The notes: generated by a model from the sequence alone, not told the origin. A DNA stretch of 64,000 nt from an uncultured Candidatus Babeliaceae bacterium (GCA_963704655.1 OY969927.1:288001-352000), one strand, 5' to 3'; counted from the first letter of the stretch, positions 5,053 to 58,400 are shown. Made by a program: numbers and translations.

Positions 5053-8000
5053 ATGAAGCAATATCTTTATGCAGCAGTCGCTGCAGCCATGTTATGTGTA
5101 TCTTTACAAGCAGAAATAATCTCATTGGAACAGGCTTATGTGGTTTTACAAGAGCTTGAAATGTTCGCACAAGGCGATCAACTTGATGCATCGAGTGATA
5201 CTATTATGTTCGCGCTTGATGAACTTATAGGTTATCTTGAAAGTGATACACAGCTTTCAGCAGATGTTCGTTTGGATATTTCAAAAAAGATTAATCTGCT
5301 TGTTAAAAAAATTAATCTGCAGACACGTGCGCCACGTTTAGATGCACCAGAAATACGTGAAACTACAATACTTAATGAAAATTATTACCCAACGCGCGAT
5401 CTCTATTTACGCAACTTACTCATTACCGGCTCGCTTATTTTAAATGGCCAGCAGATCGGCGGTGGCGGCAGTGTGCCAAGTAATCTCTATGTATTAAAAG
5501 CTGGCGACACCATGACGGGCGATTTAACCATGGCAGACCAGCATGGCATTGTATTAGAAGATGCTTCTGGCGCCAATGCAATTACCGTGCAAGCCCCAAA
5601 TACTACCGAAACTTATAGCTTTACGTTGCCAGATAGTGCTGGCGCTGCAAACCAAGCGCTTACTACAGACGGCTTTGGGAATTTAACGTGGGCATCTGCG
5701 ATTGCAACAACCTCTGGATTACAAAGTATTAATAATCTCACAACACCGCACCAATATCTTCTTACCAGCACGGGGACATCAACTGCATTTCAGTTTATCG
5801 AAACAAGTTCTTCGCATATTTTAAATATTCCATACGTTCAGGATTCTAGCCAAGGGTATGGTCTTCTAGATTCTGCTGATTACAATAATTTTGTTAATGC
5901 CGCAAACATGGTTAATGCTGCAACCAGCGACGACGTTTGTGGCACACTTGTAAAGCGTGATGCTAATTGTAATTTTTCAGCTAATATAATTACGGCAACC
6001 GTAACGTATGCTAACTTTGCCTTAACGTCTTCAAGTGCATTAACGGCAGTAACATCAACAACGGCACAATATGCACAGGTAGCAAACAGCGCCAACTATC
6101 TTTGTGGCGTACCTGCATGTAATTTAGTAAGTACCTATTCACAAGTTCTTTCCGGGACAAGTTTTGATATTCCATTAACACTCGTCTTGCGTGATAGCAC
6201 CGGCAGCTTTGCAGCAACAACTATTACACTCACCGGTGAATTGTTGTTACAAAATGCAAATGGTAATCTAACAGCGCTTCAAGCAGGTGCGCAAAGTTTT
6301 GCTCCAGTGTATACACTGATATTGCCAACAACAATTGGTGGTGATAATCAGGTATTAACAACAGACGGTAATAACCCAGCAAATCTTTTTTGGCAGCCTG
6401 TTTCTGCAATTGTAACTTCTACAATTGAACTTTATGGCGATGTTATGGGGTCATCAACTGCAAATATCGTTAATACTATATGCGGACAAAGTGCATGTTC
6501 AATTGTTACCACCGTTACCACTGCAACAAGTGACAATATCTGTGGTACTTTGGTAAAACGTGACAGTAACTGTAACTTTTCTGCTAATTTAATTACTGCA
6601 ACGGTGACAAATGCACTTCTTTCACAAACAGCATTATATGCAACTAATGCGCTACTTTCGGTAACTTCGCAATATGCGCAAAACGCAGGTTCGACTAACT
6701 TTGCTTACACGTCATCGCTTGCACAATATGCACAGGTAGCAAACAGTGCCAACTATCTTTGTGGTGTGCCTGCATGTAATTTAGTAAATACATATTCACA
6801 GGTACTTTCCGGGACAAGTTTTGATATTCCATTAACACTCGTCTTGCGTGATAGCACCGGCAGCTTTGCAGCAACAACTATTACACTCACCGGTGAATTG
6901 TTGTTACAAAATGCAAATGGTAATCTAACAGCGCTTGAAGCTGGTGCGCAAAGTTTTGCTCCAGTCTATACATTAATATTGCCAACAACAATTGGTGGTG
7001 ATAATCAGGTATTAACAACAGACGGTAATAACCCAGCAAATCTTTTTTGGCAGCCTGTTTCTGCAATTGTAACTTCTACAATTGAACTTTATGGCGATGT
7101 TATGGGGTCATCAACTGCAAATCATGTTGCATTTGTATGTGGCGTGCCTGCATGTGCACTCGCACAAACGTATTCAACGGTTCTTTCAGCAACTGCATGT
7201 GATATTCCACTCACGCTTATATTGCGTGACAGCACGGGCAGCTTTGCGGCAACAACTATTACACTCACGGGAAACAGTTTAATAAATTACAGCTCTGTCG
7301 GCGGATGCAACACTGGAGCTGGCTTTGTCTTTGCTCCGACAAAACAAAACACCATTATCGGGCTTGGTGCTGGTAATAATAACGTTCTCACTGGAACATC
7401 AAACATTGCAGTTGGATATCAGGCACTTGCAAAAAATACTTCTGGTTATAATAATGTGGCTCTTGGATTTAAGGCACTTGCAAATGGCAATACGATCAAT
7501 AACTTTGACAATATCGCCATTGGCGCCAATACGCTTTCTGGCGCATCTATTTTAGGTGATAACGTTGCAGTTGGAACAAATGCGCTTTCTGCGTCGGGTT
7601 ATACCGGCGGGCAGCAGATAGCAATTGGAACGGGTGCGTTACAAGCAAATACCACCGGTACTGGAAACATCGCAATTGGTTATGATGCATTACAAACAAA
7701 TACAAGTGGGGTAAATAATATAGCAATAGGCGCTTATGCACTGAGTAAGTTAAACTATAACCTACCGTTTCTTGGTATACCTAGCGGGGCAAATAATATT
7801 GCTATAGGCTCCAATGCATTAAGTAATATAGCTATAGCTGGTGAAAATGTCGCTATAGGCTCAAATACCTTACAGAATGGATCTTTTTCATACGGAAATG
7901 TTGCTATTGGTTATAACGCATTTGTTTTTGGCAATTCAGCATTCAATGTGGCTGTTGGTAATTCGAGTATGGTCAGCAATAATACGGGCGCAAGCAACAC

Positions 8001-10941
8001 AGCTGTTGGTTATTATTCACTTTCTGGTAACATAAGTGGCAATAGCAATACAGCTATAGGTTCTTATTCACTTTCTGGTAACATAACTGGCTTTAATAAC
8101 ACTGCAGTTGGTTATAATGCTCTAACGGCTTCAGTTGGCAGTGACCTTACTGCTGTGGGAGCTCAAGCTTTACAAAATAATACCTTAGGTACTCAAAACG
8201 TTGGCGTGGGTTATAGCGCACTACAAGACAATACTATAGGATCTAATAGTACTGCTGTTGGATACAATGCTCTTATCAATGCAGTAAGCTCAAACAATAA
8301 TACTGCCATTGGTAATTTTACACTTAACAATGCGGCTGTTGGTTCAGACAATACCGCTGTTGGTAATCAGGCTCTATCAAATACCCAAACAAGTTCGTTG
8401 GTTGGAATAGGTTCTGGTGCGCTATTCAATAATAGCACCGGCGCACAAAATGTTGCTGTTGGTTATTATGCACTTAATGCAAATACAACTGGTGGATCAA
8501 ACACTGCGTTAGGATACAATGTGCTCAACCAATCAACCGGCAGCAATAACACGGTAGTCGGCGCAAACTCTGGCACCGGCATAACATCTGGAGCACATAA
8601 TATTTATCTTGGTGACAGCATTAATAATGGCAATGAAAGTAATACTATACGAATTGGCAACAGTAACCAAACTGAAGCATATGTTGCGGGCATTTATGGA
8701 ACATCATTACCAAGTGGTTCACCTGTTGTTGTTACATCAAGTGGCCAGCTTGGCATCGGTTCTTCAACAACAGTCACCGGCACCAGCTGCGATACAGCAC
8801 TCACGTTTATATTGCGTGACAGCACGGGCAGCTTTGCAGCAACAACCGTCACACTCACCGGCCACAGCTTAATTAATTACAGCTCTGTGGGCGGGTGCGA
8901 TACGGGCGCTGGCTTTGTCTGGGCGCCAACAAACCAAAATACTATTATCGGCTTAAACGCAGGAAATAATAATGTCATTACTGGCACATCAAACGTTGCT
9001 TTAGGCTACCATGCACTTGCAAATGCAAAAACTATAAATAACTTTGACAATATAGCTATCGGCGCATTTACCCTTACTGGAACTGCCGTGCTTGGCGACA
9101 ATATCGCAATTGGGGTGAATGCCCTTTCAAATGTGAACTATAACAAAGGCCAGCAGATTGCTATTGGTACTGGAGCATTGCAAAATAATACAAGCGGTAT
9201 ACAAAATACTGCAGTGGGTTATTATGCGTTAAACTTAAATACAACCGGAACATCAAACGTCGCTCTAGGTTATAATGCTGGAAGTGGTTTAATTACTGGT
9301 ACAGGGAACATTATCATTGGCGCATATACCGCCCAAGGTTTAACCTCTGGAGCAAATAATATTATTATCGGGCAAGGCGCTACCGCAGCAGCATCAACCG
9401 CAAGTAATAATACTACTATTGGTACACTTGTAGGTGTTAATAGTACCTCGAGTAATAATGTCGTAGTTGGTTATCAAGCATTACAAAATGATACGGCCGG
9501 AAACCAAGTTGCTGTTGGATATCAAGCATTACAAAATAACACTGACGGTTCACAAAATACTGCTGTTGGGTACCAAGCGCTTAATGCGAATACTACTGGA
9601 ACATCAAATGTGGCTCTTGGGTTTAAGGCACTTGCAAATGGCAATACTATCAATAATTCTCGCAATATAGCAATTGGGGCCAATGCCCTTTCTGGATCTG
9701 CCGTGCTTGGTGACAATGTCGCAATTGGGGTGAATGCACTTTCAAATGTGAACTATAACCAGAAGCAGCAGATAGCTATCGGAACAGGTGCATTGCAAGA
9801 TAATACAAACGGTACGCAAAATATTGCTATAGGATATCAAGCGCTTAATGCAAATACTGGGTCAGGACAGAACGTTGTTATAGGGACCGAAGCATTATCA
9901 TCTGTTAATGATGCTAGTTCGTTTTCTAATGTAGTAATAGGGCATCAAGCTCTACAAACTGGGAACAATACCATATATGAAAACGTGGCCATTGGTTATC
10001 AAGCAATGCAAGCGAATAATGCTAGTGCCCAATGCGTTGCTATCGGTTGTCAGGCACTTCTAAATAATCAAAATCCGTATATAACCGCTATAGGTTATCA
10101 GGCACTTCAAATGAATAATGCGGGAGCGCTAAACACGGCAGTGGGAGCAGGTGCATTAAGTCAATCAAGTGGTCAAGCTAACAATACAGCCGTGGGCTAT
10201 AGTGCATTAGCTAATAATTCCAATGGTAATAATAATACCGCGGTGGGTACTTATGCTTTATCCGGAGGAGCTGTAAGTACTGGTTATTACAATGTTGGAG
10301 TTGGGGTTGGGGCTGGTACACAAATAACATCTGGAAATTCAAATACGCTTATTGGTTGTATCGCAGGTACAAATCTTGACTCAGGCAACAATAATACCAT
10401 GATTGGTTATAATACAGGCGGCAGCGTTACTACTGGAAACAACGTTATTGTTATTGGAGCAGGCCTGCCCGGTTCAAACACTGCAAACAGCACATATATA
10501 GCTGGCATTTCTGGGGCAACGGCAAGTGGTGGCGTAGAGGTATATTGTAATACCAGCAGTCAACTTGGAACTGTTAATTCTTCTCGACGTTATAAAGAAA
10601 ATATTAAGGACCTAGGTAATTTTTCAGATAATATCTATAAATTACGTCCCGTGCAATTTAATTACATAAGTGATCAAGAAAAGTGGTTTGAAGCTGGTTT
10701 AATAGCAGAAGAAGTAGAGGATGTTTATCCAGAAATAATTGTTTATAACAAAGATGGTGAAGTTGAAACGATACGCTATAAACAGGTGTATATGATGATG
10801 CTTAATGAACAGCAAAAAGATCATGCACGCATTGCCACCCTTGAAGATCAATGTAGTGCATTGCAACAAACCAATAACCTGATGTCCGCACAGATCGCCG
10901 ATCTCCAAGCAAAAATTGAGATGTTATTAGCAAAGGCATAA
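5053..10941 (+). CDS. Secreted 1962-aa mosaic fibre protein with C-terminal S74-like chaperone
   Basis: Signal peptide; tail-fibre-like motifs (YVLKAGDTMTGDL; TLPDSAGAANQALTTDGFGNLTW); head-like repeats; SSRRYKENI at 10579. Confidence 0.85.
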   Translation: MKQYLYAAVAAAMLCVSLQAEIISLEQAYVVLQELEMFAQGDQLDASSDTIMFALDELIGYLESDTQLSADVRLDISKKINLLVKKINLQTRAPRLDAPEIRETTILNENYYPTRDLYLRNLLITGSLILNGQQIGGGGSVPSNLYVLKAGDTMTGDLTMADQHGIVLEDASGANAITVQAPNTTETYSFTLPDSAGAANQALTTDGFGNLTWASAIATTSGLQSINNLTTPHQYLLTSTGTSTAFQFIETSSSHILNIPYVQDSSQGYGLLDSADYNNFVNAANMVNAATSDDVCGTLVKRDANCNFSANIITATVTYANFALTSSSALTAVTSTTAQYAQVANSANYLCGVPACNLVSTYSQVLSGTSFDIPLTLVLRDSTGSFAATTITLTGELLLQNANGNLTALQAGAQSFAPVYTLILPTTIGGDNQVLTTDGNNPANLFWQPVSAIVTSTIELYGDVMGSSTANIVNTICGQSACSIVTTVTTATSDNICGTLVKRDSNCNFSANLITATVTNALLSQTALYATNALLSVTSQYAQNAGSTNFAYTSSLAQYAQVANSANYLCGVPACNLVNTYSQVLSGTSFDIPLTLVLRDSTGSFAATTITLTGELLLQNANGNLTALEAGAQSFAPVYTLILPTTIGGDNQVLTTDGNNPANLFWQPVSAIVTSTIELYGDVMGSSTANHVAFVCGVPACALAQTYSTVLSATACDIPLTLILRDSTGSFAATTITLTGNSLINYSSVGGCNTGAGFVFAPTKQNTIIGLGAGNNNVLTGTSNIAVGYQALAKNTSGYNNVALGFKALANGNTINNFDNIAIGANTLSGASILGDNVAVGTNALSASGYTGGQQIAIGTGALQANTTGTGNIAIGYDALQTNTSGVNNIAIGAYALSKLNYNLPFLGIPSGANNIAIGSNALSNIAIAGENVAIGSNTLQNGSFSYGNVAIGYNAFVFGNSAFNVAVGNSSMVSNNTGASNTAVGYYSLSGNISGNSNTAIGSYSLSGNITGFNNTAVGYNALTASVGSDLTAVGAQALQNNTLGTQNVGVGYSALQDNTIGSNSTAVGYNALINAVSSNNNTAIGNFTLNNAAVGSDNTAVGNQALSNTQTSSLVGIGSGALFNNSTGAQNVAVGYYALNANTTGGSNTALGYNVLNQSTGSNNTVVGANSGTGITSGAHNIYLGDSINNGNESNTIRIGNSNQTEAYVAGIYGTSLPSGSPVVVTSSGQLGIGSSTTVTGTSCDTALTFILRDSTGSFAATTVTLTGHSLINYSSVGGCDTGAGFVWAPTNQNTIIGLNAGNNNVITGTSNVALGYHALANAKTINNFDNIAIGAFTLTGTAVLGDNIAIGVNALSNVNYNKGQQIAIGTGALQNNTSGIQNTAVGYYALNLNTTGTSNVALGYNAGSGLITGTGNIIIGAYTAQGLTSGANNIIIGQGATAAASTASNNTTIGTLVGVNSTSSNNVVVGYQALQNDTAGNQVAVGYQALQNNTDGSQNTAVGYQALNANTTGTSNVALGFKALANGNTINNSRNIAIGANALSGSAVLGDNVAIGVNALSNVNYNQKQQIAIGTGALQDNTNGTQNIAIGYQALNANTGSGQNVVIGTEALSSVNDASSFSNVVIGHQALQTGNNTIYENVAIGYQAMQANNASAQCVAIGCQALLNNQNPYITAIGYQALQMNNAGALNTAVGAGALSQSSGQANNTAVGYSALANNSNGNNNTAVGTYALSGGAVSTGYYNVGVGVGAGTQITSGNSNTLIGCIAGTNLDSGNNNTMIGYNTGGSVTTGNNVIVIGAGLPGSNTANSTYIAGISGATASGGVEVYCNTSSQLGTVNSSRRYKENIKDLGNFSDNIYKLRPVQFNYISDQEKWFEAGLIAEEVEDVYPEIIVYNKDGEVETIRYKQVYMMMLNEQQKDHARIATLEDQCSALQQTNNLMSAQIADLQAKIEMLLAKA
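6064..7120 (+). repeat. Internal direct repeat, ~400-bp near-identical blocks 657 bp apart
   Basis: CGTGATAGCACCGGC at 6190 and 6847; duplicated peptide AQYAQVANSANYLCGVPAC...GDVMGSSTAN. Confidence 0.9.
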
Positions 10942-10957
10942 TGATACTATTGTTATA

Positions 10958-26904: not shown

Positions 26905-29900
26905 CTATGCCACCAACTTCTCTATTTTTGTTTGAAGATCAGCAATTTGCTCCTGCATAGTCGCAATTGTTTCCTTATAACATATTTCTAACGTCTCTAA
27001 ACGTTTTCTATAGTCAAGTAACATTGCACGATCTTTTTGCAGCTCATTAAGCATCATCAAAGGGATATACTGATATTGCACTGTTTGAGGCTGTCCATAA
27101 GCATCCTTAATAACAATGCCAGGATAGATTTCTTCAACCTCTTCAGCAATAAGACCATATTCTAGATGATCTTCATAACCATCCCAAATATAATTAAATG
27201 TTACCGGGCGTAGCTTATGCAGATCTTCTGTAATATTATCCATATCTTGAATATTTTTCTTAACACGTCGCGTTGATGCTGTTGTACCAAGCTTTCCATT
27301 AGACCCTATGCTAACTGCTGCTCCCCCTGTGGTATAGGTCTGTCCAAAGATACCTTGAATATAACAAGCACCCGAGCCCGCACCATACAGAGCTCCTATA
27401 CGAATCGTATCACTTTCAGCTGTGGATGTTGTTATTGCACCAGCATATACGTTGGCACCAATATAAATATTACCCGTACCTGTCAATAAATTTGTTCCAG
27501 CATTATAACCAATAGCAACATTATTTGTGCCAGTAGTTAAAGCAGCAAGTGCATCGGCGCCAATTGCGGTGTTATTGCCCCCATAGGTGATCGTGCCACT
27601 CAATTTAGTAAGTGCATAACATCCGACAGCAACGTTATTGACACTTGCAGTATTTGCAGCAAGTGTTTGGTGCCCAATAGCAACGTTAGATGTGCCGGTG
27701 GTGTTTGCATTTAATGCATAATACCCAACAGCGGTATTTTGAATGCCAGTAGTAGCATTTGCTAATGCACCTGAACCAACTGCGGTGAGCTGACTTGCTG
27801 TACTATTTGCCAGAGCATTTGTACCAATTGCTGTATTATCATTGCCACTAATATTAATGGTTAATGCTTCATTTCCAAGCGCCACATTGTTTGACCCAAT
27901 GGTATTTGCATCTAATACTTGGTAACCGATACCAACGTTTGCCGTGCCTGTGGTATTAAATTGTAACACGCCGGTTCCAATACCAGTTTGCTGGCCGCCA
28001 GTATAGTTTGCGCTTGATAATGCGTTATAACCAATAGCAATATTATCACCAAGTATACTTGCTCCGGAAAGTGCAAATGCGCCGATGGCAATATTGTCAA
28101 AGTTATTTATAGTTTTAGCATTTGCAAGTGCTTGATAACCAATTGCAACGTTTGATGTTCCGGTTGTATTTGCATTAAGCGCATAATACCCCTCAGCATG
28201 ATTTTGTACACCACTCGTGTTATTTTGCAATGCACCAGTACCAATAGCAATCTGCTGACCCTTATTATAGTTTGCGCTTGATAATGCGTTATAACCAATT
28301 GCTATATTATCACCAAGCACTGCAGTTCCGGTTAATGTAAATGCGCCAATGGCAATATTGTCAAAGTTATTAATTGTTCTTGCATTTGCAAGCGCTTGGT
28401 AACCAATTGCAATATTTGAAGTTCCGGTGGTATTTAAGTTTAATGCATTGAAACCAACTGCGGTATTTTGAATGCCAGTAGTAGCATTTGCTAATGCACC
28501 TGAACCAACTGCGGTGAGCCGACTTGCGGTGCTATTTGCCAGAGCATTTGTACCAATTGCCGTATTATCATTGCCACTAATATTAATGGTTAATGCTTCA
28601 TTTCCAAGCGCCACATTGTTTGACCCAATGGTATTTGCATCTAATACTTGGTAACCGATACCAACGTTTGCCGTGCCAGTGGTGTTAAACTGTAACACGC
28701 CCGTCCCAATAGCAGTCTGCTGGCCCTTTGTGTAGTTTGCGCTTGATAATGCGTTATAACCAATTGCGATATTATCACCTAAAATAGATGCCCCAGAAAG
28801 CGTATTTGCACCGATAGCAATATTATCAAAGTTATTTGCAGTGTTAGCATTTGCAAGCGCTTGGTAACCAAGTGCGGTGTTATTGAACCCAGTAATATTA
28901 GCATTTAATGCATAATAACCAACGGCAACATTTTGTGCGCCGGTGGTATTATTGAATAATGCACCAGAACCTATTCCAACCAACGAGCTTGTTTGGTTAG
29001 TTGATAAAGCCTGGTTACCAACTGCGGTATTGTCTGAACCAACAGCCGCATTGTTAAGTGTTAAATTTCCGATGGCAGTATTATTGTTTGAAAATTGTGA
29101 TAATGACAGCGCATTGAATCCAACAGCAGTATTATTAGACCCTGATGTATTTGATTGTAAGGTACTATAACCCACGCCAACGTTTTGAGTGCCTAAGGTA
29201 TTATATTGTAAAGCTCCAGACCCCACAGCAGTAAGGGCATTGCCAACTGAAGCCGTGAGAAGAGCATTATAACCAACTGCAGTGTTATTAAAGCCAATTA
29301 TGTTACCAGAAAGTGAATAAGAACCTATAGCTGTATTGCTATTGCCAGTTGTGTTACCAGAAAGTGAATAGTAACCAACAGCTGTGTTGCTTGCGCCCGT
29401 ATTATTGCTGCCCATACTCGAATTACCAACAGCCACATTGAACGCTGAATTGCCAAAAACAAATGCATTATAACCAATAGCAACGTTTCCGTATGAAAAA
29501 GATCCATTCTGTAAGGTATTTGAGCCTATAGCGACATTTTCACCAGCTTGAATTATATTACTTAATGCATTGGAGCCTATAGCAATATTATTTGCCCCGC
29601 TAGGTATACCAAGAAACGGTAGGTTATAGTTTAACTTACTCAGTGCATAAGCGCCTATTGCAATATTATTTACCCCACTTGTATTTGTTTGTAATGCATC
29701 ATAACCAATTGCGATGTTTCCAGTACCTGTAGTATTTGCCTGTAACGCGCCCGTTCCAATTGCTATCTGCTGCCCGCCGGTATAACCCGACGCAGAAAGC
29801 GCATTTGTTCCAACAGCGATGTTATCACCTAAAATAGATGCGCCAGAAAGCGTATTTGCCCCAATTGCAATATTGTCAAAATTATTAATACCTGCAGCAT

Positions 29901-35900: not shown

Positions 35901-38900
35901 CCTTATTGTTAAAACCACCAACGACAATTCCATAGGTATTTGATGCGGTGTTGGCAGATCCGCCAACAACTGTGGCGAAAGTATTTGAAGCACTATTTCC
36001 TTCGCCGCCCACAATAACAGCTTGGTCGCCTGTTGTATTGGAGTTGCCGATGCCACCGCCAATAAATGAGCTATTACCTGCAGCGTTATTGCCAAAACCA
36101 CCAACAACAACTCCGTAGGTATTAGAAGCAGTGTTGCTTTGGCCACCAAGTATAGCAGCGTTAGTATTTGATGCGTGGTTATACTGTCCACCGCCAACAA
36201 CAGCATAATTACCAGATGCTGTATTTTCATAACCGCCAGTTACCGATGAGTAATCACCTGAAGCAGTGTGGTGTTCACCATTACCGACAAATGAGCTATT
36301 TCCTGTAGAGTTATTATAACTGCCACCAACAACAATTCCATAGGAATTTGATGCAGTGTTATTTTGTCCACCAAGTATAGCAGCGTAACTATTTGATGCG
36401 GTGTTGCTTTGTCCGCCTGCAATAACAGCGTAAGAACCGGATGCAACATCAGACCCGCTTGCATTAATTTGTAAATCAACAGCATATGTTCCGCGTGTGT
36501 TACCACTTGCAGATGCTTGTAATGCGCGAGAACCTTGCGGAGCTACTGTAAGTGCTGAAATGCTACCACAGATTTGTCCTGCAGGTGAAAGGGTAGGGTC
36601 ATTTACTGTTAAACATCCATCTGCTGTTATGTTGTATGCGGCAAAGCTGCCTGTATTGTCCCGTAACACAAGTGTGTTTGGAATATCTGCGCTTGTTGCG
36701 GTGTAAATCCAATTTAATTCTGTTGAATTAGTTACCGTTGTTATCCAGCCAAGCTGTTCTGTTTTTCCTGGTCCTGAAACGACCCCAAGAACTTGATACA
36801 ATCCAGGGGCAGCGTTAGTTGGCAATATTAATGTGTACGTATTAGTTAGATTTCCAGCGGTTAATGACACTGAACCAGCGCCTGTTGAGCCTTGGAAAAC
36901 TTGATATCCTGTTACGGTAATATTTGTTGCCGCAAAGCTTCCCGTACTATCGCGTTCTACTATTGTTCCTTGAATATCAAGTGGTGTTGCATTATAAACA
37001 CCGTTATAAGCAAACTCAAAGTTTTGATAGTCAATGCCAGAAATTAAACCAACGCTGGTTGTGCCAATTAAGTTACCTGCGTAGGGAATGTTCAATTCAT
37101 GTGTTCCAGGTTCAATGTCATTCCATACAACAAGTGTTAAATTACCGGTATTTGTAGTTAAAAATTGTTCTGGTGCTGTTAAGCCATTAAGACTTTCAAT
37201 GCCACCTGTTAATGTTGCAACCCAGCTTAATTGCCCAGAGCCGTTATTAAACAATGCTTGATTTGGTCCAGTAGCCTGTGCTGCTGGCAATATTAATGTG
37301 TACGTATTAGTTAGATTTCCAGCGGTTAATGACACTGAACCAGCGCCTGTTGAGCCTTGGAAAACTTGATATCCTGTTACGGTGATATTGGTTGCTGCGA
37401 AGCTTCCCGTACTATCGCGTTCTACTATTGTTCCTTGAATATCAAGTGGTGTTGCATTATAAACACCGTTATAAGCAAACTCAAAGTTTTGATAGTCAAT
37501 GCCAGAAATTAAACCAACGCTGGTTGTGCCAATTAAGTTACCTGCGTAGGGAATGTTCAATTCATGTGTTCCAGGCTCAATGTCATTCCATACAACAAGT
37601 GTTAAATTACCGGTATTTGTAGTTAAAAATTGTTCTGGTGCCGTTAAGCCATTAAGACTTTCAATGCCACCTGTTAATGTTGCAACCCAGCTTAATTGCC
37701 CAGAGCCGTTATTAAACAATGCTTGATTTGGTCCAGTAGCCTGTGCTGCTGGCAATATTAATGTGTACGTATTAGTTAGATTTCCAGCGGTTAATGACAC
37801 TGAACCAGCGCCTGTTGAGCCTTCGAATACTTGATATCCTGTTACGGTGATATTGGTTGCTGCAAAGCTTCCAGTACTATCGCGTTCTACTATTGTTCCT
37901 TGAATATCAAGTGGTGTTGCATTATAAACACCATTATAAGCAAACTCAAAGTTTTGATAATCTTCACCGGTGATTAAACCAACATGGTTATTGTCATCAG
38001 GTAAATTACCAGCATATGGGATATCTAATTGATGTACGCCAGTTACTGCGTTATCAGTCCAACCAAAGAATGTTTCAGCTGTGTAGGTAGTTAAGAATTG
38101 ATTTACAACAGTTACACTATTCAAGCTTTCAATTGCTGAACCAATAACAACGGTCTGCCATGAAAGATTACCGAACCCATCATTAATAAGTGTCTGACTT
38201 GAGTTACCCTGTGCTTGTGGAAGAGTTACACCATAACTTGTTGAAACTGTTGCTGGGCCAGTAATAGAGACAGTACCACTGTTATCTTTTGCTTCAAACG
38301 CTACCGTTGTTACCGTTACAGTTGTTGCTGCAAAGCTGCCGGTAGAATCGCGTAATACGAGTGTTAATGGAATATCTGCGCTTGTTGCAGACAGCACGGT
38401 TGAATAGGTTTGTGCAAGTGCGCATGCAGGAATGCCACAGACAAATGCAACGTGTGTTGCAGTTTGCGTGCCGATGACATCACCATATAATTGTCCGGTA
38501 AATGAAGTGGTAGTTATTGTCCCCACGCCAAGTTGCCCAAGTGAAGTTACTACAACAGGTGAACCGGTTACCGGTGTTCCATAAATACCAGCAACATATG
38601 CAGAAGTTTGTGTGCCTTGTGTGCCAATGCGAATGGTATTTTGGTCACCAGGTGCGCCACCACTGCTTATTAAAATATTATTACTTTCATTAGAAGTATA
38701 AGGATAACCAGCATTTAAGCCCAATGCAATATTATTAACACCTGTTAATACATTACCTAATGCAGAGTGACCAAGTGCAAGGTTTTGTCCACCAACATCT
38801 TTAGCAAGTGCGCCGTTACCCAGGGCTATATCAAAACCATTTGAAGGAGACGCAGATTGCATAGCTTCATAACCGATAGCGATGTTTGATCCCAAACCGT

Positions 38901-51374: not shown

Positions 51375-51451
51375 GTTTGTTGCAAATTTTTTTTTCATGT
51401 GCAAGTATCTCTACTGATCTGACTAAAATTTTTAAATGGGATATTTGTAGT

Positions 51452-52639
51452 ATGAAGCTTCTCCAAAATATCGTTCTAGTCTGCTTATTTTCTACGGCAC
51501 ATGCTCAAATGCAGCAGGTTAATTTTTTAGAACCGCTTCATGATAATGATGGTGCGTTGCAAGACATTACTCGTGCATGCAGTCAGATTTCGTCATCTTA
51601 TACGTTGTTATTGCCCGCAAGCCAGGGTGAGCCCTATCAGGTTCTTGGGTTGATTGATGATATGGGAACACTTTCTTGGATCACCACGGTTACTGATGCA
51701 AGTCAGCTCAATTTATTATACACCGCAACTTCAGCAGACATTCCCTTAACGCTTGTTTTACGTGACAGTACTGGTTCATTTGCCGCAACTAATATTACAC
51801 TTACGGGAAATTTAACGCTTGCAACTCTTACAGGTGTGTTGGTTGCACAAGATGGTTTGGTCTCTGCAACAATTGGCATAGATGGAACACGTCTAGCATC
51901 GTTTCCGTTAACAGACGTCCCCGCTGTTAATTTTTTTCAACCGGTTGAACCATCACGAGAATCATATTTCTTTGATGATTTTATTGCATTTAATGCATCG
52001 GCTGGTGGCGTTTTTTATGGTGATACACCATGGGTTATTTCTAACAATTCTTACCCATCACGCGTTACGTCGTTAAAAAACACCAGCAGCTCTGTTGGTG
52101 TTACTCGCCTTTCAACGGGCAATATGCAAGATAGTTTGAACTATCTTATTAAGCAAATAAATGCAGACGGTACCAGTAATGGTGTTGGATTTGGCCTTGG
52201 TCCCTGCTTGAATGAATGGCGCGTATCAATTCCTGGTTCAACTCTTTCTTTGGCAAACAGTTTTACAGTATGTTGTGGCATGGGCGATAATTTGGGAACC
52301 GCACCTTACGTGCCACAAAATGGTATTTATTTTTCATACACAAATACGGGTTCTGGGGCTGTATGGCAAATTAACACAGCTTTTGGTGGAACAATAACGC
52401 AAAATACAAGTCCAGCTGTAACTCCACTGGCTGGGGTGTTCCAGAGGCTTGCATATGTTGTTGATGCAAGTAGCTCACAGGTAGATTTTTTTATTGATGA
52501 TCTTTACGTTGGCACACTTTATAACATTCCTAGTGGTAATGATTGTTCAGCATTTGCATCGATACGAACAGGAGGTTCTTCAGGCTCGATTGACTTAGAT
52601 TATTGGTATTATCATTATACTTTTAATCTGCGGCGTTAA
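51452..52639 (+). CDS. Short secreted fibre-family protein with lectin/ConA-like C-terminal domain
   Basis: Signal peptide from ATG 51452; one RDSTGSFAAT junction; beta-rich C-terminal domain FFDDF...DLDYWYYHYTFNLRR. Confidence 0.75.
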   Translation: MKLLQNIVLVCLFSTAHAQMQQVNFLEPLHDNDGALQDITRACSQISSSYTLLLPASQGEPYQVLGLIDDMGTLSWITTVTDASQLNLLYTATSADIPLTLVLRDSTGSFAATNITLTGNLTLATLTGVLVAQDGLVSATIGIDGTRLASFPLTDVPAVNFFQPVEPSRESYFFDDFIAFNASAGGVFYGDTPWVISNNSYPSRVTSLKNTSSSVGVTRLSTGNMQDSLNYLIKQINADGTSNGVGFGLGPCLNEWRVSIPGSTLSLANSFTVCCGMGDNLGTAPYVPQNGIYFSYTNTGSGAVWQINTAFGGTITQNTSPAVTPLAGVFQRLAYVVDASSSQVDFFIDDLYVGTLYNIPSGNDCSAFASIRTGGSSGSIDLDYWYYHYTFNLRR

Positions 52640-52670: not shown

Positions 52671-55400
52671 ATGAGTAATAGATTATTTATTTTTGCAGTA
52701 TTTTTGATCAGTTTATTTGTTCCGATATATGCGGAAATAACAAGTGTAGATGAAGCGCTTAAGGTTGTGGGTTTTCTTGATGCGCTTGAAGAAAATTATA
52801 AAGATGCATTTAAAGAAAAAAATATACGCTATGCATTGGAAGATTTATTAGCTTTTTATGAAAATTCAAATGAATTTACTCCAGAACAACGTGCAGGACT
52901 ATTTAATAAATTATATCGCTATTTCCAGCTGGTTGAAAAATTTGATGCTGAAAATGGCTCTGCAACAAAGTTTTTAAATTCAGATCAAAGTTTAGTAACC
53001 TACTGGACACAAATGGTAGCTGCTACTCATACTATACTTGATACGAATAATAGTTCTACGAGTAATGCATTAAATTTAATTGCGCCAATTTCTGGTGGAT
53101 TTAACTACACCTATACGTTGCAAATGCCGGTTAACCAGGGATCTTTTGGACAAGTTTTGTCAACTGATGGTAACAACCCTGCGCAACTTTCTTGGCTTAC
53201 TACTATAACTGCAGATGTAAGTCTTATTTACTCTGCAACAAGTTGTGATAATGTAAATACCATAGTATTACGTGATAATAATGGCAGTTTTGTAGCAACA
53301 AATATCGCGCTGATGGGCAATACAAATAACAGCTTAATAAATTATAGTACAACTTCATGTGGTCCGGGTACGTCGATGTTGAGTATTCCTGGAACACAAA
53401 ATATATTCTTAGGCACATCCGTTGGCAATTCAGCTGTATCGGGCCCAGGTAACGTAGCAGTTGGTAATACAACACTCAATGCTATAACTTCAGGCTCTGG
53501 TAACACTGCTATTGGTGTTAATGCATTAGCTGCAGTAGTGACAGGCTCTAATAATACTGCAGTTGGTTATGGCGCTAACGTAACTGGCGCAAATGCTCTG
53601 AATCAGACAGCAGTTGGTGCCGGCGCAGTTGCACCATTTAATAACAGCGTGGTATTAGGTAACGCTGCTGTAACCAATGTGGTCCCTATGGCAAGCGGTG
53701 TTACAAGTCTTGGTGGTGCAAGTAATATTTGGTCAACCCTCAATACCTATTCAACTAATTACTATGATAGATCAGGTGATGTAGTTACTATTGCAGCAAC
53801 GCCAGGTGGAACAGGAACTTATACAATGTATTGGCCAACTTCTGTAGGTCAAGCAGGGTATGTGCTTGAAGCAACCACCAGTAGTAGTCCGCAACAGCTT
53901 AATTGGATTCCTATTACCGCATTGCTGAGCGGTACCTATTGTGATTTCCCAAGCACCTACGTGCAGCGCGATCCAAATGGTAAATTTGCAGCAACAACGA
54001 TTACGTTAACGGGTGTATCGTTACTTAACTACAGCACTCTTGGTGGTTGTGACCTCGGTAACCCATTCTTGAGCGTTCCAGGAACAAACAACTTGTTCTT
54101 AGGCACTTCTGCTGGTAAACAAACAGTATCAGGCAGTGCCAACGTTGCTGTGGGTAACCAAGCATTAACAAGCATTAGTACTGGTACGTCTAATACTGCA
54201 ATTGGTTATAATGCTCTTGCTGCAGCAGCTGCCGGCTATAATAATGCTGCATTGGGTTATTATGCATTAGCTATTGCTACCGGAAATAATAACGTTGCAG
54301 TAGGTTATAATGCCGGTTCAGCAAGTACCGGATCTAATAATATCTATGTTGGTACAGGAGTAACCGGAAATTCTGGTGATGCCAGTGTTATCAGTATCGG
54401 TATTCAAAATGCTGGAACAAGTGGCACCTATATGGGTGGTATTTATAATACTACGCCTACAGGATTAAACTCTCTTGTAGGTATTACCAGCAGTGGTCAA
54501 CTTGGTGTTGCAACGTCAGCAACTATTACCACACTTACGGTATCAGGAAGTCTTACTGTTGATAATCTTAATGGTGCAGTTATTGCAACTAACGGGTTAT
54601 TAACAGCGACTATTGGTATTGACGGCACACGCCTTGCATCATTTATATTAACCGATACACCTGCAGTAAGCTTCTTCCAACCGGTTGAGCCATCACGTGA
54701 ATCATACTTCTTTGATGACTTTATGGCATTTAATTCTACTGCTGGCGACTTGTTCTATGGTGATACACAATGGGTAATTGGTAATAATACTGCCGGACGT
54801 GTTACGGCAATTGCACCGCTTGCATCTAATGGCGCAATTGGTGTGACTCGTTTAACATCTGGCGCTGCTGTAAATAACAGTAATTATATTACCAAACAGC
54901 TTACGGGCACAACGTCATTAAGCTTGTCGCTAGGATATGGCCCATGCTTGAATGAATGGCGTGTTTCTGTTCCAGCAACTTCAAGCGGAACAAATAGTTT
55001 CTATACTCGTGTTGGCTTTGGAGATAGTCCTGCTGCTACAGCAGTAAACCCAACAGGTGCGCCAAGTAATGGTATTTACTTCCAATGCCTTGATAGCATC
55101 AACAGTGGTTCATGGACGGTTAATACCGCAAGTAATGGAAGCAGAACATCGGCAAATACAGCAGTTGCTCCTACTCCAGGCGTATTCCAACGATTGAGTT
55201 TTCAAGTTAATGGAAATGCATCAAGTGTTACGTTCTACATAAATGATGTTTCGGTAGGAACTATTACGACAACGATACCAACAATAGCCAATGGTAACTA
55301 TTGTTCACCATATGCGTCTGTGGTGCGAAATGCTGGTACTGGAGGATCTCTTGATCTTGATTATTGGTATTTCCATTATACCTTTAATTCACGACGTTAA
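52671..55400 (+). CDS. Secreted 909-aa fibre-family protein with lectin/ConA-like C-terminal domain
   Basis: Signal peptide, helical N-domain, head-like repeats, C-terminal domain paralogous to the previous gene. Confidence 0.8.
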   Translation: MSNRLFIFAVFLISLFVPIYAEITSVDEALKVVGFLDALEENYKDAFKEKNIRYALEDLLAFYENSNEFTPEQRAGLFNKLYRYFQLVEKFDAENGSATKFLNSDQSLVTYWTQMVAATHTILDTNNSSTSNALNLIAPISGGFNYTYTLQMPVNQGSFGQVLSTDGNNPAQLSWLTTITADVSLIYSATSCDNVNTIVLRDNNGSFVATNIALMGNTNNSLINYSTTSCGPGTSMLSIPGTQNIFLGTSVGNSAVSGPGNVAVGNTTLNAITSGSGNTAIGVNALAAVVTGSNNTAVGYGANVTGANALNQTAVGAGAVAPFNNSVVLGNAAVTNVVPMASGVTSLGGASNIWSTLNTYSTNYYDRSGDVVTIAATPGGTGTYTMYWPTSVGQAGYVLEATTSSSPQQLNWIPITALLSGTYCDFPSTYVQRDPNGKFAATTITLTGVSLLNYSTLGGCDLGNPFLSVPGTNNLFLGTSAGKQTVSGSANVAVGNQALTSISTGTSNTAIGYNALAAAAAGYNNAALGYYALAIATGNNNVAVGYNAGSASTGSNNIYVGTGVTGNSGDASVISIGIQNAGTSGTYMGGIYNTTPTGLNSLVGITSSGQLGVATSATITTLTVSGSLTVDNLNGAVIATNGLLTATIGIDGTRLASFILTDTPAVSFFQPVEPSRESYFFDDFMAFNSTAGDLFYGDTQWVIGNNTAGRVTAIAPLASNGAIGVTRLTSGAAVNNSNYITKQLTGTTSLSLSLGYGPCLNEWRVSVPATSSGTNSFYTRVGFGDSPAATAVNPTGAPSNGIYFQCLDSINSGSWTVNTASNGSRTSANTAVAPTPGVFQRLSFQVNGNASSVTFYINDVSVGTITTTIPTIANGNYCSPYASVVRNAGTGGSLDLDYWYFHYTFNSRR

Positions 55401-55427: not shown

Positions 55428-58400
55428 ATGAAAATAAACATACTAGTTTTCACATTAACGTTAGTAACATTTTTGCCATTTTATGCTGCCATAAACAGTT
55501 TAAAAGAAGCACGAATTGTTTCGCGGTATCTTGGTGTTATTAAACAACATGACACTATCCTTTTTTCAGACCCTTTGGTGATTCAGACGGTAAACGATCT
55601 TATTGATTTTTGTGAAAATAATAATCAATTAAGTGAACAAGAAAAATTGGAGTTTGTAACGAAATTAGAAGAGTTTATTTTGTTGGTCCCCGCTGATAGC
55701 AGTGGGGATCAACAGATCGGAGATCAATTGGTGGGGAAAGCAAACCCGCTGTCTGTTAATGGGCAGACATTGGTTGCTTATTGGAGTCAAATTTTTAGCT
55801 CGACAGAATTTTTATTTGATAGCACAGGGAACAACACCGTAGCATTATCTGCTCCATTGGTGTTAAATGATAGTTATACTTTACAATTTCCTGTATCAGA
55901 AGGTTCTGCTTATCAAGTGCTGGGAACATTGGGTGGCAATCCCGCACAACTTGCTTGGCTTACTACTGTTACTAATACGAGTCAATTAAATTTACTGAAT
56001 ACCGCAACAAATTGTGATGTTGCAAATACATTAGTATTGCGTGATACAACTGGCAGCTTTGCAGCAACAACAATCACGTTAACCGGCAATAGTTTAATTA
56101 ATTTCAGTACTGTTGGTGGCTGCGATATCGGACAAGGCTTTGTCTTTGCGCCAACACATCAAAATACCATTATCGGCCTAAATGCAGGAAATAATAACAC
56201 CCTTACCGGCACAAGTAATGTTGCATTAGGTTATAATGCGCTAGCAGCGAACATTATTGGACATGACAATATCGCATTAGGTACCAATGCGCTTGCAAAT
56301 AACACCACCAACCTATCTACTGCTGTAGGCTCAGGAACTTTACAAAGTAATGTTTCTGGTAGCCAAAATACTGCTGTTGGATATTATGCATTGAATAAAG
56401 TTGTTGCCAATGGTAACAATACCGCAGTTGGATATTACGCCCTTTTGAATAATACTAATAACCAGCTTACCGCTGTTGGTGCTGGTGCATTACAAACGAA
56501 TGTCAACGGCTCAGCAAATGTTGCAGTTGGCTATAACGCATTGAATCAAAATAACGGAGCAAACAATACGGGTCTTGGTTTTCAGGCAGCGCAGGGAACA
56601 ACTGCTGCAGGTAATATTGTTGCAGTAGGTGCAAATGCTTTTGCAGCAGGCGTTGCTACTGGTGCACAAACGGTTGCAGTTGGCTCAGCTGCGATGCAGA
56701 ATGCAAAACCAGCTTTGGGTGCAGATATTGCCATAGGTTATCAAGCATTGCAGAATGATAATCAAGGGCTCAATGTTGCAGTTGGTACATCGAGCATGAC
56801 CACTAATAATACCGGCGCTTATAACACTGCTGTTGGAATATCAACATTGCAAAACAATGGTAGTGGGATTCAAAATACTGCTATCGGATATTATGCACTT
56901 CAAGCAAATACAACGGGAACATCAAACATTGCATTAGGCTACCAAGCACTTGCAAATGCAAACACCATAAATAACTTTGATAATATTGCAATTGGAGCAT
57001 TTACGCTTACTGGAACTGCGGTATTGGGTGATAATATTGCGGTGGGGGTCAATGCGCTTTCTGCGCCTGGCTATAACCAAGGTCAGCAGATAGCAATTGG
57101 AACAAATGCATTACAACTTAATACAACTGGAACGGCAAATATTGCAATCGGTTACGAAGTGCTTGATGCAAACACGGCTGGTTCATCAAACGTTGGGCTT
57201 GGGTATCAAGCTTTAGGTACTAATGTTAGTGGTAATGATAATACAGCTGTTGGAACATTAGCTCTTTTCAATAACACAACAAATCAGATCACCGCGGTTG
57301 GTTCTGGTGCACTACAAAATAATACTACTGGTATTCAAAATACTGCAATTGGTTATAAAGCGCTTAATGCTAATACCACAGGGACATCAAATGTTGCTAT
57401 CGGATATAAAGCGTTACAGACAAATACTATTGGTGATGATAATATTGCTATAGGTTATAACGCATTAAACACCTTCAATTCTGCTATTGGAAAAAATATA
57501 GCTATTGGTTCGCTAGCATTGCAAAGTTTAAATACTACCAATGCGCAGAGTGTTGCCATTGGTTATCAGTCAGGGCTAATTTCTACAGGTGCTAGCAATA
57601 CTATTGTTGGTTCAAATGCGGCGACTGGTTTAACAACAGGCGGAAGTAGTGTTGTTATTGGTGCAACTGCCGGCGCAGGCACAACAGTAAGTAATAACGT
57701 TGTTGTTGGCGCAGGCGCAGGAAACCAGACATTAACGGGTGCAACTAACGTTGTTGTAGGGCAGGGTTCCGGAACTGGATTAACTTCTGGCGCAAGTAAT
57801 ACCATTTTAGGACAAGCTGCCGGAACCGGTTTAACGTCAGGTGGAAGCAGTGTTGTTATAGGCGCAACTGCAGGTGCAGGTACAACAGTAAGTAATAACG
57901 TTGTTGTTGGCGCAGGCGCAGGAAACCAGACATTAACGGGTGCAACTAACGTTGTTGTAGGGCAGGGTTCCGGAACTGGATTAACTTCTGGCGCAAGTAA
58001 TACCATTTTAGGACAAGCTGCCGGAACCGGTTTAACGTCAGGTGGAAGCAGTGTTGTTATAGGCGCAACTGCAGGTGCAGGTACAACAGTAAGTAATAAC
58101 GTGGTTGTTGGTGCTGGTGCGGGAAACCAGACATTAACCGGCGCTAGCAATGTTATTGTTGGTCAGGGAACAGCTACGGGATTAACTTCAGGTGGAAGCA
58201 ATATTATTATTGGTCAAGGAAACACGGGCGGTACATTAACTACAGGAGCTAATAATATTATTATTAGTACCGGCAATAATGCTACGTACCCAATCGCTAA
58301 TGGTTCGAATGGTATCATTATAGGCTTTGGAACAACTTCTACAACAGCCTGTTGGATCGATGGGATTCTGCCTTTTGCCGCTGGCGCAAATACTGTACGT

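What the first reader, a model, noticed from the sequence alone, without database searches (positions are those of the whole stretch)
6190..56090. Recurring RDSTGSFAATTITLTG junction behaves like a module-shuffling hub
Seen: about 20 copies (4 in gene 5053, 12 in the giant, 1, 2 and 1 in the three complete cluster genes) plus two RDxNCNFSA variants. DNA is strongly conserved, e.g. CGTGA(T/C)AGCAC(C/G)GGCAGCTTTGC(A/G)GCAACAAC at 6190, 6847, 7225, 8815. Different module types precede and follow it, and the 1167-bp duplication ends beside it. Inference: it is a structural neck that also serves as a crossover site for in-frame module exchange and length variation.
Basis: partly seen in the sequence, partly recalled or inferred. 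Interest (0 to 1): 0.7.

Follow-up and report, generated by a model that had tools for sequence, protein, structure and literature searches.

The report
Conserved junction box in fibre genes
A 28-residue sequence box recurs at the joints between building blocks of giant surface-fibre proteins in a small parasite-type bacterium, and blocks have been copied and swapped at or near these joints, as is already known for phage tail fibres.

Summary
Most of these genes end in a Peptidase_S74 chaperone domain, which marks phage-like trimeric fibres.

The box joins 7 upstream to 11 downstream flank types. Its sequence follows the downstream module, so it reads as each module's N-terminal cap.

- Ends of recent high-identity segments are about 2.8-fold enriched in the box, but the head-end motif YVAGIY is enriched at least as much.
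- Exchange therefore concentrates in a junction zone rather than at one hub.
- Most synonymous sites in the box are saturated.
- Only about 7 core codons are over-conserved, and that bias is shared with related species.

The box is not special to this genome. A profile finds 2254 protein clusters in many bacterial phyla, and it occurs on viral contigs. No Pfam family or solved structure matched in my searches.

The closest analogues are Bdellovibrio MAT fibres and T-even tail-fibre recombination at conserved motifs. The trimer structure and ongoing length variation remain untested. The scan has not noted this box on other DNA.

The parts
5053..10941 (+). Fibre gene (1962 aa): signal peptide, 6 boxes, two beta-roll heads, C-terminal Peptidase_S74
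26905..41244 (-). Giant fibre gene (4779 aa): 12 boxes, many heads, C-terminal Peptidase_S74
51377..52639 (+). Short fibre gene (420 aa ORF): one box followed directly by a non-S74 tip domain
52671..55400 (+). Fibre gene (909 aa): 2 variant boxes, 2 heads, and the same tip domain as 51377-52639 (51% identity over 294 aa)
55428..61037 (+). Fibre gene (1869 aa): one box and Peptidase_S74 (2 stretches)
2..3394 (+). 3' part of a 2677-aa fibre gene. Its 5 boxes lie just upstream of the window; it ends in S74
61034..64000 (+). 5' part of a further fibre gene. Its 2 divergent boxes lie just beyond the window end
5920..6003 (+). Box, RDANCNFSA variant (codons -12..+15 around the Arg codon at 5956)
6154..6237 (+). 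Box (Arg codon at 6190)
6523..6606 (+). Box, RDSNCNFSA variant (Arg codon at 6559)
6811..6894 (+). Box (Arg codon at 6847)
7189..7272 (+). Box (Arg codon at 7225), precedes a head
8779..8862 (+). Box (Arg codon at 8815), lies between two heads
30748..30831 (-). Box (Arg codon at 30795)
31804..31887 (-). Box (Arg codon at 31851)
32752..32835 (-). Box, variant RDNTGTFEA (Arg codon at 32799)
33934..34017 (-). Box (Arg codon at 33981)
34894..34977 (-). Box (Arg codon at 34941)
36616..36699 (-). Box (Arg codon at 36663)
36907..36990 (-). Box in the 465-nt tandem unit (Arg codon at 36954)
37372..37455 (-). Box in the 465-nt tandem unit (Arg codon at 37419)
37837..37920 (-). Box (Arg codon at 37884); 3' boundary of the cassette shared with the distant gene
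38305..38388 (-). Box (Arg codon at 38352); 5' boundary of the cassette shared with the distant gene
39586..39669 (-). Box (Arg codon at 39633); start of the second 1167-nt unit
40753..40836 (-). Box (Arg codon at 40800); start of the first 1167-nt unit
51725..51808 (+). Box (Arg codon at 51761)
53235..53318 (+). Box, variant RDNNGSFVA (Arg codon at 53271)
53931..54014 (+). Box, variant RDPNGKFAA (Arg codon at 53967)
56004..56087 (+). Box (Arg codon at 56040)
38510..40817 (-). Tandem duplication of a box-plus-head unit, period 1167 nt (389 codons), 98.7% identical
37850..38340 (-). 490-nt box-to-box cassette, 90.6% identical to a segment of the fibre gene at genome 811-817 kb. The upstream flanks are unrelated

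Best explanation
The motif is the core of a roughly 28-residue box, (A/G)TSxDxPxTLVLRDxTGSFAATxITLTG. The box forms the conserved N-terminal cap of each module in a family of secreted, phage-like fibre proteins. Trimer formation is inferred from the C-terminal Peptidase_S74 chaperone.

Every module type starts with the same box in the same codon phase. Modules can therefore be stacked in any order. Any duplication, deletion or exchange whose ends fall in the junction zone stays in frame and keeps modules whole. The junction zone runs from the end of the preceding module through the box.

The box DNA supplies 18-32 nt of near-identity between otherwise unrelated modules. It is one of at least two homology patches where RecA-type or slippage exchanges have occurred. 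The other is the head-end motif YVAGIY...GQLGVG.

Shown: the box anatomy, the combinatorial flanks, the clustering of similarity breakpoints in the junction zone, and box-bounded cassettes.

Inferred: that the box folds as an inter-module connector in a trimer, that DNA homology rather than selection on products places the breakpoints, and that the fibres bind host cells of this Dependentiae-type parasite.
For: Box anatomy and flanks.
- 50 of 50 regex hits are in frame in 11 fibre genes.
- S74 domains end 4 fibre genes in the window. Signal peptides are readable.
- There are 7 x 11 flank types in 17 combinations.
- Box identity follows the downstream type: 0.743 for different-upstream/same-downstream pairs, 0.621 for the reverse, 0.583 baseline. 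Cys at -9 occurs in 24 of 24 head-type copies and 0 of 26 others.

Breakpoints.
- All 11 of 11 head-box-head junctions change nearest paralogue across the box.
- 34 of 115 distinct segment ends lie in -60..+70, against 9.8% expected.
- 33 of 124 ends lie in -40..+70, against 11.7 +/- 4.3 under circular shifts, with 0 of 1000 as high.
- Conserved sites inside modules are not enriched: NTIIGL 1.4-fold, LxLP..QVL 0.7-fold, beta-roll repeats 0.4-0.9-fold.
- 3 of 38 segments are box-bounded at both ends, against 0.19 expected. The alignment shows similarity starting and stopping inside boxes.

Frame and length.
- Box-to-box periods of the tandem units (1167, 465, 378, 393, 657, 912/918 nt) are all multiples of 3.
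- The adjacent genes 51377-52639 and 52671-55400 share their N-terminus and tip. They differ by two heads inserted at the box.
- The gene in the same position next to gidB in a same-genus genome is 1835 aa, against 4779 aa here.

Other.
- RecA is present.
- Core codons show 0.68 identity against 0.40 expected between unrelated copies. Flank codons show 0.35 against 0.345.
Against: - Counted per segment the enrichment is weak: 18 of 38 versus 11.6 +/- 3.8, and 68 of 1000 shifts are as high.
- The head-end motif YVAGIY is more enriched per site (4.5-fold) and GQLG(V/I)G is similar (3.05-fold). The box is not the only junction.
- Segment ends are not independent events.
- Selection for intact modules would give the same breakpoint map with no role for DNA homology.
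- The over-conserved core is only about 7 codons. Its GGC bias is shared with other Dependentiae-type genomes (23 observed versus 9.3 expected in 33 boxes), so it is not simply recent conversion.
- GC3 shows a 6-codon spike, not a broad tract.
- Two near-identical assemblies carry a giant gene of the same length with one residue changed, so no rapid length variation is seen.
- The trimer structure was not obtained. The monomer model of a 170-residue construct has pLDDT below 50 across the box.
Confidence: 0.6

Rival explanations
1. The box is purely a protein-level structural element. It is conserved because the fold needs it. Breakpoints cluster at module boundaries only because recombinants that cut through a module are lost. 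DNA identity in the box is a by-product of invariant residues, common codons and shared ancestry, and has no mechanistic role.
For: - Thirteen box codons flanking the core are at synonymous saturation: 0.35 observed against 0.345 expected.
- In other phyla and on viral contigs, codon choice at the invariant residues matches background. GGC is 23 versus 20.5 of 52, and 22 versus 17.5 of 73.
- The same box is conserved as protein in 2254 clusters.
- Breakpoints are equally or more enriched at the head-end motif.
- Ser at +5 stays AGY where relatives alternate Ser/Asn (AGY/AAY). This explains the codon family without conversion.
Against: - The core codons GGC and AGC are minority codons (29% and 16% usage) yet reach 26 of 39 and 32 of 37 copies.
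- Between unrelated copies, core codon identity is 1.7 times the expected value.
- Several segment ends fall inside the box itself, at +3 to +45.
Confidence: 0.3
2. The conserved core DNA is the target of a dedicated site-specific system, shufflon- or invertase-like. This system would programmatically swap fibre cassettes, including between the oppositely oriented giant gene and its neighbours.
For: - The over-conserved core (about 18-24 nt) is the size of a recombinase crossover site.
- The core codon bias is kept across related species.
- Box copies occur in both orientations within 35 kb.
Against: - No recombinase is among the window's genes.
- The genome's only Phage_integrase hits (2) and Resolvase hit (1) lie at 389, 530 and 841 kb, far from the 261-354 kb cluster.
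- Housekeeping genes lie between the oppositely oriented copies.
- Two assemblies have the same giant gene.
- No reliable joints were seen in metagenome contigs, though those were too short to count as evidence.
Confidence: 0.03
3. The repeats and the duplication are assembly artefacts of a repeat-rich region.
For: Repeat-rich fibre genes are hard to assemble. Related draft genomes break in them (one search shows many short contigs).
Against: - The genome is one contig.
- A second assembly of 1,307,222 bases encodes a giant protein of identical length with one substitution, and an identical 1962-aa protein.
- All 50 boxes are in frame in long open frames.
- Short contigs from other runs match parts of the gene with 0 differences (table 8).
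Confidence: 0.02

Closest known systems
Bdellovibrio bacteriovorus MAT (mosaic adhesive trimer) fibre family (Caulton et al. 2024, PMC10769870; abstract and passages read)
   Same: Both are multi-copy families of large secreted bacterial fibre proteins. Both have phage-like beta-rich shafts, a C-terminal self-cleaving Peptidase_S74 chaperone in one subgroup, and other tip domains in the rest. Both have mosaic domain usage and a proposed role in binding the cell that the bacterium invades.
   Different: - The passages I read do not describe a recurring RDxxGxF box or a junction motif. Their consensus loop motif is a different one (V-G-G/N-pi-x-x-P-x-x-x-L).
- MAT proteins are about 1000 aa. These reach 4779 aa, with several heads per chain.
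- The host here is inferred to be a protist.
- Homology to MAT N-terminal domains was not tested.
T-even phage tail-fibre and adhesin genes (gp37/gp38): recombination at conserved motifs (Trojet et al. 2011, PMC3157838, passages read; it cites Tetart et al. 1996 and 1998, which I did not read)
   Same: Short, highly conserved motifs separate variable segments.
   Different: - The motifs differ (glycine-rich motifs and His boxes; the latter name is recalled).
- Those are phage genes, and the exchanges were recovered experimentally. Here the genes are chromosomal, the partners are paralogues within one genome, and the evidence is comparative only.
Trimeric autotransporter adhesins with repeated head-neck-stalk modules (YadA, BadA, UspA; recalled from general knowledge, no paper read here)
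   Same: Both are long trimeric surface fibres built from repeated heads joined by short conserved connectors. Both show module-number variation between alleles. The 14-15-residue head repeats here resemble YadA-type beta-rolls in pattern.
   Different: - No YadA anchor or other TAA domain reached threshold in Pfam.
- These proteins end in S74 chaperones or soluble tips.
- The head repeats match phage tail-spike PHROGs instead.
Shufflons and invertase-switched phage tail-fibre genes (R64 Rci/sfx, Mu Gin; recalled)
   Same: A short conserved DNA site inside a fibre or pilus-tip gene allows in-frame exchange of the distal part.
   Different: No adjacent recombinase, no evidence of inversion, and direct as well as inverted copies.

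Membership tests
Peptidase_S74-terminated trimeric fibre/tailspike proteins (incl. MAT S74 subgroup) | C-terminal Peptidase_S74 (intramolecular chaperone) domain | tested here: met
   PF13884 scores above its cut-off at the C-terminus of the genes 2-3394, 5053-10941, 26905-41244 and 55428-61037. It is absent from 51377-52639 and 52671-55400.
Peptidase_S74-terminated trimeric fibre/tailspike proteins (incl. MAT S74 subgroup) | Catalytic Ser...Lys at the start of the S74 domain (SDxxxK in PMC10769870) | tested here: inconclusive
   SSRRYK in gene 5053 and STRRVK in the giant gene keep Ser and Lys at the same spacing. The Asp is replaced, and cleavage is untested.
Peptidase_S74-terminated trimeric fibre/tailspike proteins (incl. 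MAT S74 subgroup) | Homotrimeric intertwined fibre | not testable with these tools
The monomer model has low confidence over the box.
Peptidase_S74-terminated trimeric fibre/tailspike proteins (incl. MAT S74 subgroup) | MAT-specific conserved ~130-aa beta-rich domain after the signal peptide | not tested
   No MAT sequence was fetched or compared.
Tail-fibre mosaicism by recombination at conserved motifs (T-even gp37/gp38 type) | Short conserved motifs separating interchangeable variable segments | tested here: met
   7 upstream x 11 downstream flank types around one box, in 17 combinations.
Tail-fibre mosaicism by recombination at conserved motifs (T-even gp37/gp38 type) | Exchange points lie in or near the conserved motifs | tested here: met
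   33 of 124 ends fall in the box zone against 11.7 expected. There are box-bounded cassettes. Equal enrichment at the head-end motif and weak per-segment significance apply.
Tail-fibre mosaicism by recombination at conserved motifs (T-even gp37/gp38 type) | Homology to gp37/gp38 and their motifs | tested here: not met
   No such family covers the box. Only phrog_33119 ('long tail fiber protein distal subunit') matches, and only the C-terminal S74 region.
Trimeric autotransporter adhesins | C-terminal YadA-type membrane anchor | tested here: not met
   No anchor domain appears in Pfam scans of 9 window proteins.
Trimeric autotransporter adhesins | YadA-like head repeats | tested here: inconclusive
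   Only a sub-threshold YadA_head hit in a relative (P0006, E 0.019) and an Atlas lead.
Shufflon / invertase-switched fibre genes | Dedicated site-specific recombinase encoded beside the switching sites | tested here: not met
   None in the window. Genome hits lie at 389, 530 and 841 kb only.

The most novel reading that the evidence does not exclude
In this Babeliaceae-type lineage the box core DNA (about GGCAGCTTTGCAGCAAC) may be kept at the nucleotide level because it works as a recombination signal. This would turn the eleven fibre genes into a cassette system that reshuffles host-binding modules in frame. It would be a chromosomal, paralogue-based counterpart of phage tail-fibre shuffling, in an obligate intracellular parasite with a 1.3-Mb genome.
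Probability: 0.12. Interest if true: 0.75.

Novelty: new member of a known kind. Interest (0 to 1): 0.45.

Why it matters
Dependentiae are poorly known parasites of protists. I found no paper in the held library that links them to S74 fibres (search; no 'adhesin', 'fiber' or 'attachment' in PMC4776705).

This genome spends 5.5% of its DNA on eleven modular fibre genes. A rule for how modules are joined gives a handle on how such parasites might vary their host-binding surface.

The box is also a widespread fibre element. A profile finds 2254 protein clusters, and it occurs on viral contigs. It matched no Pfam model and no solved structure in my searches, so a structure of one box-containing trimer would annotate thousands of proteins.

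The recombination idea itself is not new. It repeats what is known for T-even tail fibres.

Tried and rejected
- Monomer AlphaFold2 of a 170-aa module-box-head construct: mean pLDDT 56, and below 50 across the box. Uninformative.
- The 40-aa box model (pLDDT 91) gave no Foldseek match at E<=10 and no VIA-align match at Z>=2 among 48,161 chains. The model is too small to conclude anything from this.
- PDB sequence searches with a 559-aa segment and two box profiles gave nothing significant. The best hit was E 1.2 over 11 residues.
- Pfam has no family covering the box in window proteins or in viral and other bacterial box proteins. DUF5907 hit another part of a Pedobacter protein.
- Sequencing runs: 7 runs held at most 0.30 of the sampled words. 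Laying 4 of them gave only 150-490-nt low-depth contigs, and joints with 22-31-nt sides. This cannot show or exclude length variants.
- RNA structure over 5 boxes: z between -1.22 and +1.23. Rejected.
- GC-biased gene conversion: GC3 is 0.56 only in codons 0-5, then 0.12 in codons 6-11, against 0.27 gene-wide. This is not a broad tract. Not supported.
- Literature search for six box heptapeptides as text: 0 papers.
- A published Dependentiae isolate genome (1.1 Mb, 36.4% GC) does not fit this genome's size and GC. I did not pursue it further.
- ESM Atlas returned only unnamed clusters, plus one YadA_head lead in giant-virus proteins.


Full report
**Setting.**
- The window is bases 288001-352000 of a single-contig genome of 1,298,077 bases with 38% G+C.
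- It contains ordinary housekeeping genes: SerRS, HemN-like, SecD, ATP-dependent ligase, PyrF, GidB, MatE, amidase, MreC and RecJ.
- Among these lie very long open frames rich in Ser, Thr, Asn, Gly and Ala.
- Four of these frames end in Pfam Peptidase_S74, the self-cleaving intramolecular chaperone of phage endosialidase-type trimeric fibres.
- Their 14-15-residue 'NTAVGYxALxxNTxG' head repeats match PHROG tail-spike and virion-structural families, with E down to 1e-121.
- Their N-termini read as Sec signal peptides.
- The closest box-bearing loci in public genomes carry record titles naming Candidatus Babeliaceae, Dependentiae or TM6. Earlier AI notes on this genome say the same.

- The loose pattern RD..[GC].F.A occurs 50 times in six-frame translation of the genome. 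All 50 are in the reading frame of 11 fibre genes, at 261-354 kb and 811-817 kb. These genes total 71,520 nt, or 5.5% of the genome.
- The quoted 32-mer has 5 exact and 6 near matches, against none in 100 shuffles.
It is about 28 residues, (A/G)TSxDxPxTLVLRDSTGSFAATTITLTG.

**What flanks the box.**
- Clustering 40 residues upstream and 45 downstream of the 50 copies gives 7 upstream and 11 downstream types in 17 combinations.
- The commonest downstream type (24 copies) is the start of a beta-roll head, NSLINYSSVGGCDTG....
- This head start is preceded by three main upstream types:
  - a head end (YVAGIY...VVVTSSGQLGVGS), 11 copies;
  - a small 'LxLP..GQVL..W.TTVTNS.QLNLLY' element, 8 copies;
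  - a 'CGVPACxLVxTYSxVLS' element, 3 copies.
- Box sequence follows the downstream type more than the upstream type. Mean identity is 0.743 for different-upstream/same-downstream pairs, 0.621 for the reverse, and 0.583 for pairs that differ in both.
- Cys at position -9 is present in 24 of 24 head-type copies and 0 of 26 others. It pairs with a Cys at +27 in the head start.
- I therefore read the box as the N-terminal cap of each module, not as a free-standing linker.

**Breakpoints.**
- In anchored pairwise blastn, 333 of 1225 box pairs align box to box at the DNA level. In 181 of these 333 the similarity starts less than 30 nt upstream of the Arg codon.
- Among the 11 head-box-head junctions, the nearest paralogue 192 nt upstream differs from the nearest paralogue 198 nt downstream in all 11. 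Identities reach 96-100% on each side. The switches fall between about -160 and +130 nt.
- For segments of >=150 nt and >=90% identity I excluded three short-period tandem arrays in the genes at 261, 266 and 271 kb. That left 38 segments.
- 34 of 115 distinct ends lie within -60..+70 nt of a box, against 9.8% of positions.
- Under circular shifts of the box positions, 33 of 124 ends lie within -40..+70, against 11.7 +/- 4.3, and 0 of 1000 shifts reach this. Counted per segment it is only 18 of 38 against 11.6 +/- 3.8, with 68 of 1000 as high.
- The two end counts differ because one search dropped ends inside the arrays.
- Controls are informative:

| Anchor | Sites | Enrichment | Shifts >= observed (of 1000) |
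|---|---|---|---|
| Box RD..[GC].F.A | 50 | 2.78-fold | 0 |
| Head end YVAGIY | 13 | 4.5-fold | 0 |
| Head end GQLG(V/I)G | 12 | 3.05-fold | 13 |
| Head start NTIIGL | 22 | 1.4-fold | 259 |
| LxLP..QVL | 20 | 0.7-fold | 797 |
| Beta-roll repeats (two patterns) | 112 and 172 | 0.9- and 0.4-fold | 660 and 997 |

- Exchange is therefore concentrated in the inter-module junction zone. The box is one boundary element among several, not a single hub.
- Three of the 38 segments have both ends in boxes in both copies, against 0.19 expected, with 13 of 1000 shifts as high.
- The clearest is a 490-nt cassette, window 37850-38340(-). It is 90.6% identical to part of the gene at 811-817 kb. Similarity begins inside one box and decays inside the next, and the upstream flanks are unrelated.
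- The 1167-nt tandem duplication starts 17 nt before the Arg codon. It ends at the conserved head end, not at the next box.
- All tandem box-to-box periods (1167, 465, 378, 393, 657, 912/918 nt) are multiples of three.

**Synonymous sites.**
- In the fibre genes GGC is 29% of Gly codons and AGC is 16% of Ser codons. At box positions +4 and +5 they are used in 26 of 39 and 32 of 37 copies.
- I then used only pairs of copies whose flanks are under 80% identical, which gives 26 clusters.
- Codons +2 and +4 to +9 show 0.68 codon identity against 0.40 expected from codon usage.
- Thirteen other box codons with equally conserved residues (TLVL, RD, TITLTG) show 0.35 against 0.345, which is saturation.
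- The core bias is not purely intragenomic. In 33 boxes from other Dependentiae-type loci GGC is seen 23 times against 9.3 expected. In 52 boxes from other phyla it is 23 against 20.5, and in 73 viral boxes 22 against 17.5.
- Between-genome codon identity is 0.55-0.66 at +4, +5 and +8, but only 0.42 at +7, where within-genome identity is 0.76.
- Ser at +5 alternates with Asn in relatives (AGY/AAY), which explains the codon family.
- GC3 peaks at 0.56 in codons 0-5 and falls to 0.12 in codons 6-11. This does not look like a conversion tract.
- There is no RNA structure signal.
- I regard the lineage-wide core codon bias as unexplained. It is compatible with repeated short exchanges through the box, but is not proof of them.

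**Distribution.**
- A profile of the 22 window boxes finds 2254 representative proteins at E<=1e-3, 562 at E<=1e-10 and 90 at E<=1e-30 among 1.84 billion. Most have several stretches, up to 24.
- Genome loci with the generic form '...NTPNTIVxRDxxGNFSAGTITA...' come from Acidobacteriota, Verrucomicrobiota, Planctomycetota, Pedobacter and others.
- 168 stretches on IMG/VR contigs encode it. The 80 loci kept hold 134 boxes. Some of those frames match PHROG tail-fibre families.
- Among 20 relatives, all 5 same-genus genomes have the box (7-25 matches in fragmented assemblies, against 53 here). It is found in 3 of 7 other genera of the family and 1 of 8 other families of the order. Not found does not mean absent.
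- No Pfam model covered the box, and no PDB sequence matched.

**Structure.**
- A monomer model of a 170-residue construct is poor across the box.
- A 40-residue box with a 114-sequence alignment is modelled at mean pLDDT 91. It has a short helix and isolated bridges rather than a long hairpin.
- That model has no fold match.
- This suggests a compact, co-evolving mini-unit. The 'neck' role remains an inference.

**Length variation.**
- Over evolutionary time it is clear. The gene divergently adjacent to gidB is 1835 aa in a same-genus genome, against 4779 aa here. DNA similarity is confined mostly to boxes and head starts.
- The neighbouring genes 51377-52639 and 52671-55400 share the N-terminal module, the box and a 294-residue tip (51% identity). 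They differ by two heads inserted at the box.
- Over short time I see none. A second assembly of 1,307,222 bases encodes a giant protein of the same length with one substitution, and an identical 1962-aa protein.
- Public runs gave only tiny contigs.

**Comparison with what is known.**
- The protein family works like the Bdellovibrio MAT fibres (PMC10769870).
- Membership in the S74 fibre class is supported by the Pfam domain.
- Membership in gp37/gp38, TAA or shufflon families is not supported.
- RecA is present.
- I found no paper in the held library linking Dependentiae to S74 fibres or printing the box. Subscription journals are not covered.

**Verdict.**
- The feature is real and accurately observed.
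- The 'structural connector' reading is likely.
- The 'crossover hub' reading is partly right. Exchanges cluster at module junctions that include the box, but the box is not unique, and a mechanistic role for its DNA is unproven.
- It is a new member of a known kind, of moderate interest.

Noticed in passing
window boxes listed under parts; loci L001-L042 and L057-L136: The box is a widespread, apparently unannotated fibre repeat. It is found in 2254 representative protein clusters, many bacterial phyla and 168 IMG/VR stretches. It has no Pfam or PDB match, yet a 40-aa AlphaFold2 model built with 114 sequences reaches pLDDT 91.
   Followed up: partly
every head-type box, e.g. window 7189-7310(+), 39550-39669(-): Cys at box position -9 and Cys at +27 (GGCD of the head start) occur together. 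Cys at -9 is in 24 of 24 head-type copies and 0 of 26 others. This may be a disulphide tying the box to the head.
   Followed up: no
window 8641-8780(+), 39670-39807(-), compared with 10480-10600(+): Internal head ends (YVAGIYG...VVVTSSGQLGIGS) resemble the sequence just before the terminal S74 domain (YIAGISG...SSQLGTVNSSRRYKENI). Internal units therefore look like complete fibre ends without the chaperone.
   Followed up: no
window 51790-52639(+) and 54530-55400(+): Two adjacent genes share a ~290-residue C-terminal tip domain (51% identity). It has no Pfam match, lacks S74 and ends in DLDYWY(Y/F)HYTFNxRR.
   Followed up: partly
window 54500-54560(+): In gene 52671-55400 the tip is preceded by GQLGVATSATITTLTVSG. 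This looks like a box lacking its central RDxxGxF core (by eye).
   Followed up: no
genome 262-264 kb, 267-269 kb and 272-275 kb (upstream of the window): Three fibre genes hold long tandem arrays with 108-nt and 144-nt periods (TNALLSQTALYA...-type segments), 83-97% identical between shifted copies. I excluded them from the breakpoint counts.
   Followed up: no
box codons +2 to +9 in all copies: Minority codons GGC and AGC are favoured in the box core, both in this genome and in other Dependentiae-type genomes. They are not favoured in other phyla or in viral contigs. The cause is unexplained.
   Followed up: partly
window 26905-41244(-): A second public assembly (1,307,222 bases, about 9 kb longer) encodes the same-length giant protein with a single N-to-H change at residue 4478. 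Where the extra 9 kb lies is unknown.
   Followed up: partly
window 21588-23357(+): A three-domain ATP-dependent DNA ligase (DNA_ligase_A_N/M/C) lies among the housekeeping genes of this small bacterial genome.
   Followed up: no
window 55428-61037(+): Pfam reports two Peptidase_S74 stretches in this gene. I did not examine it here.
   Followed up: no
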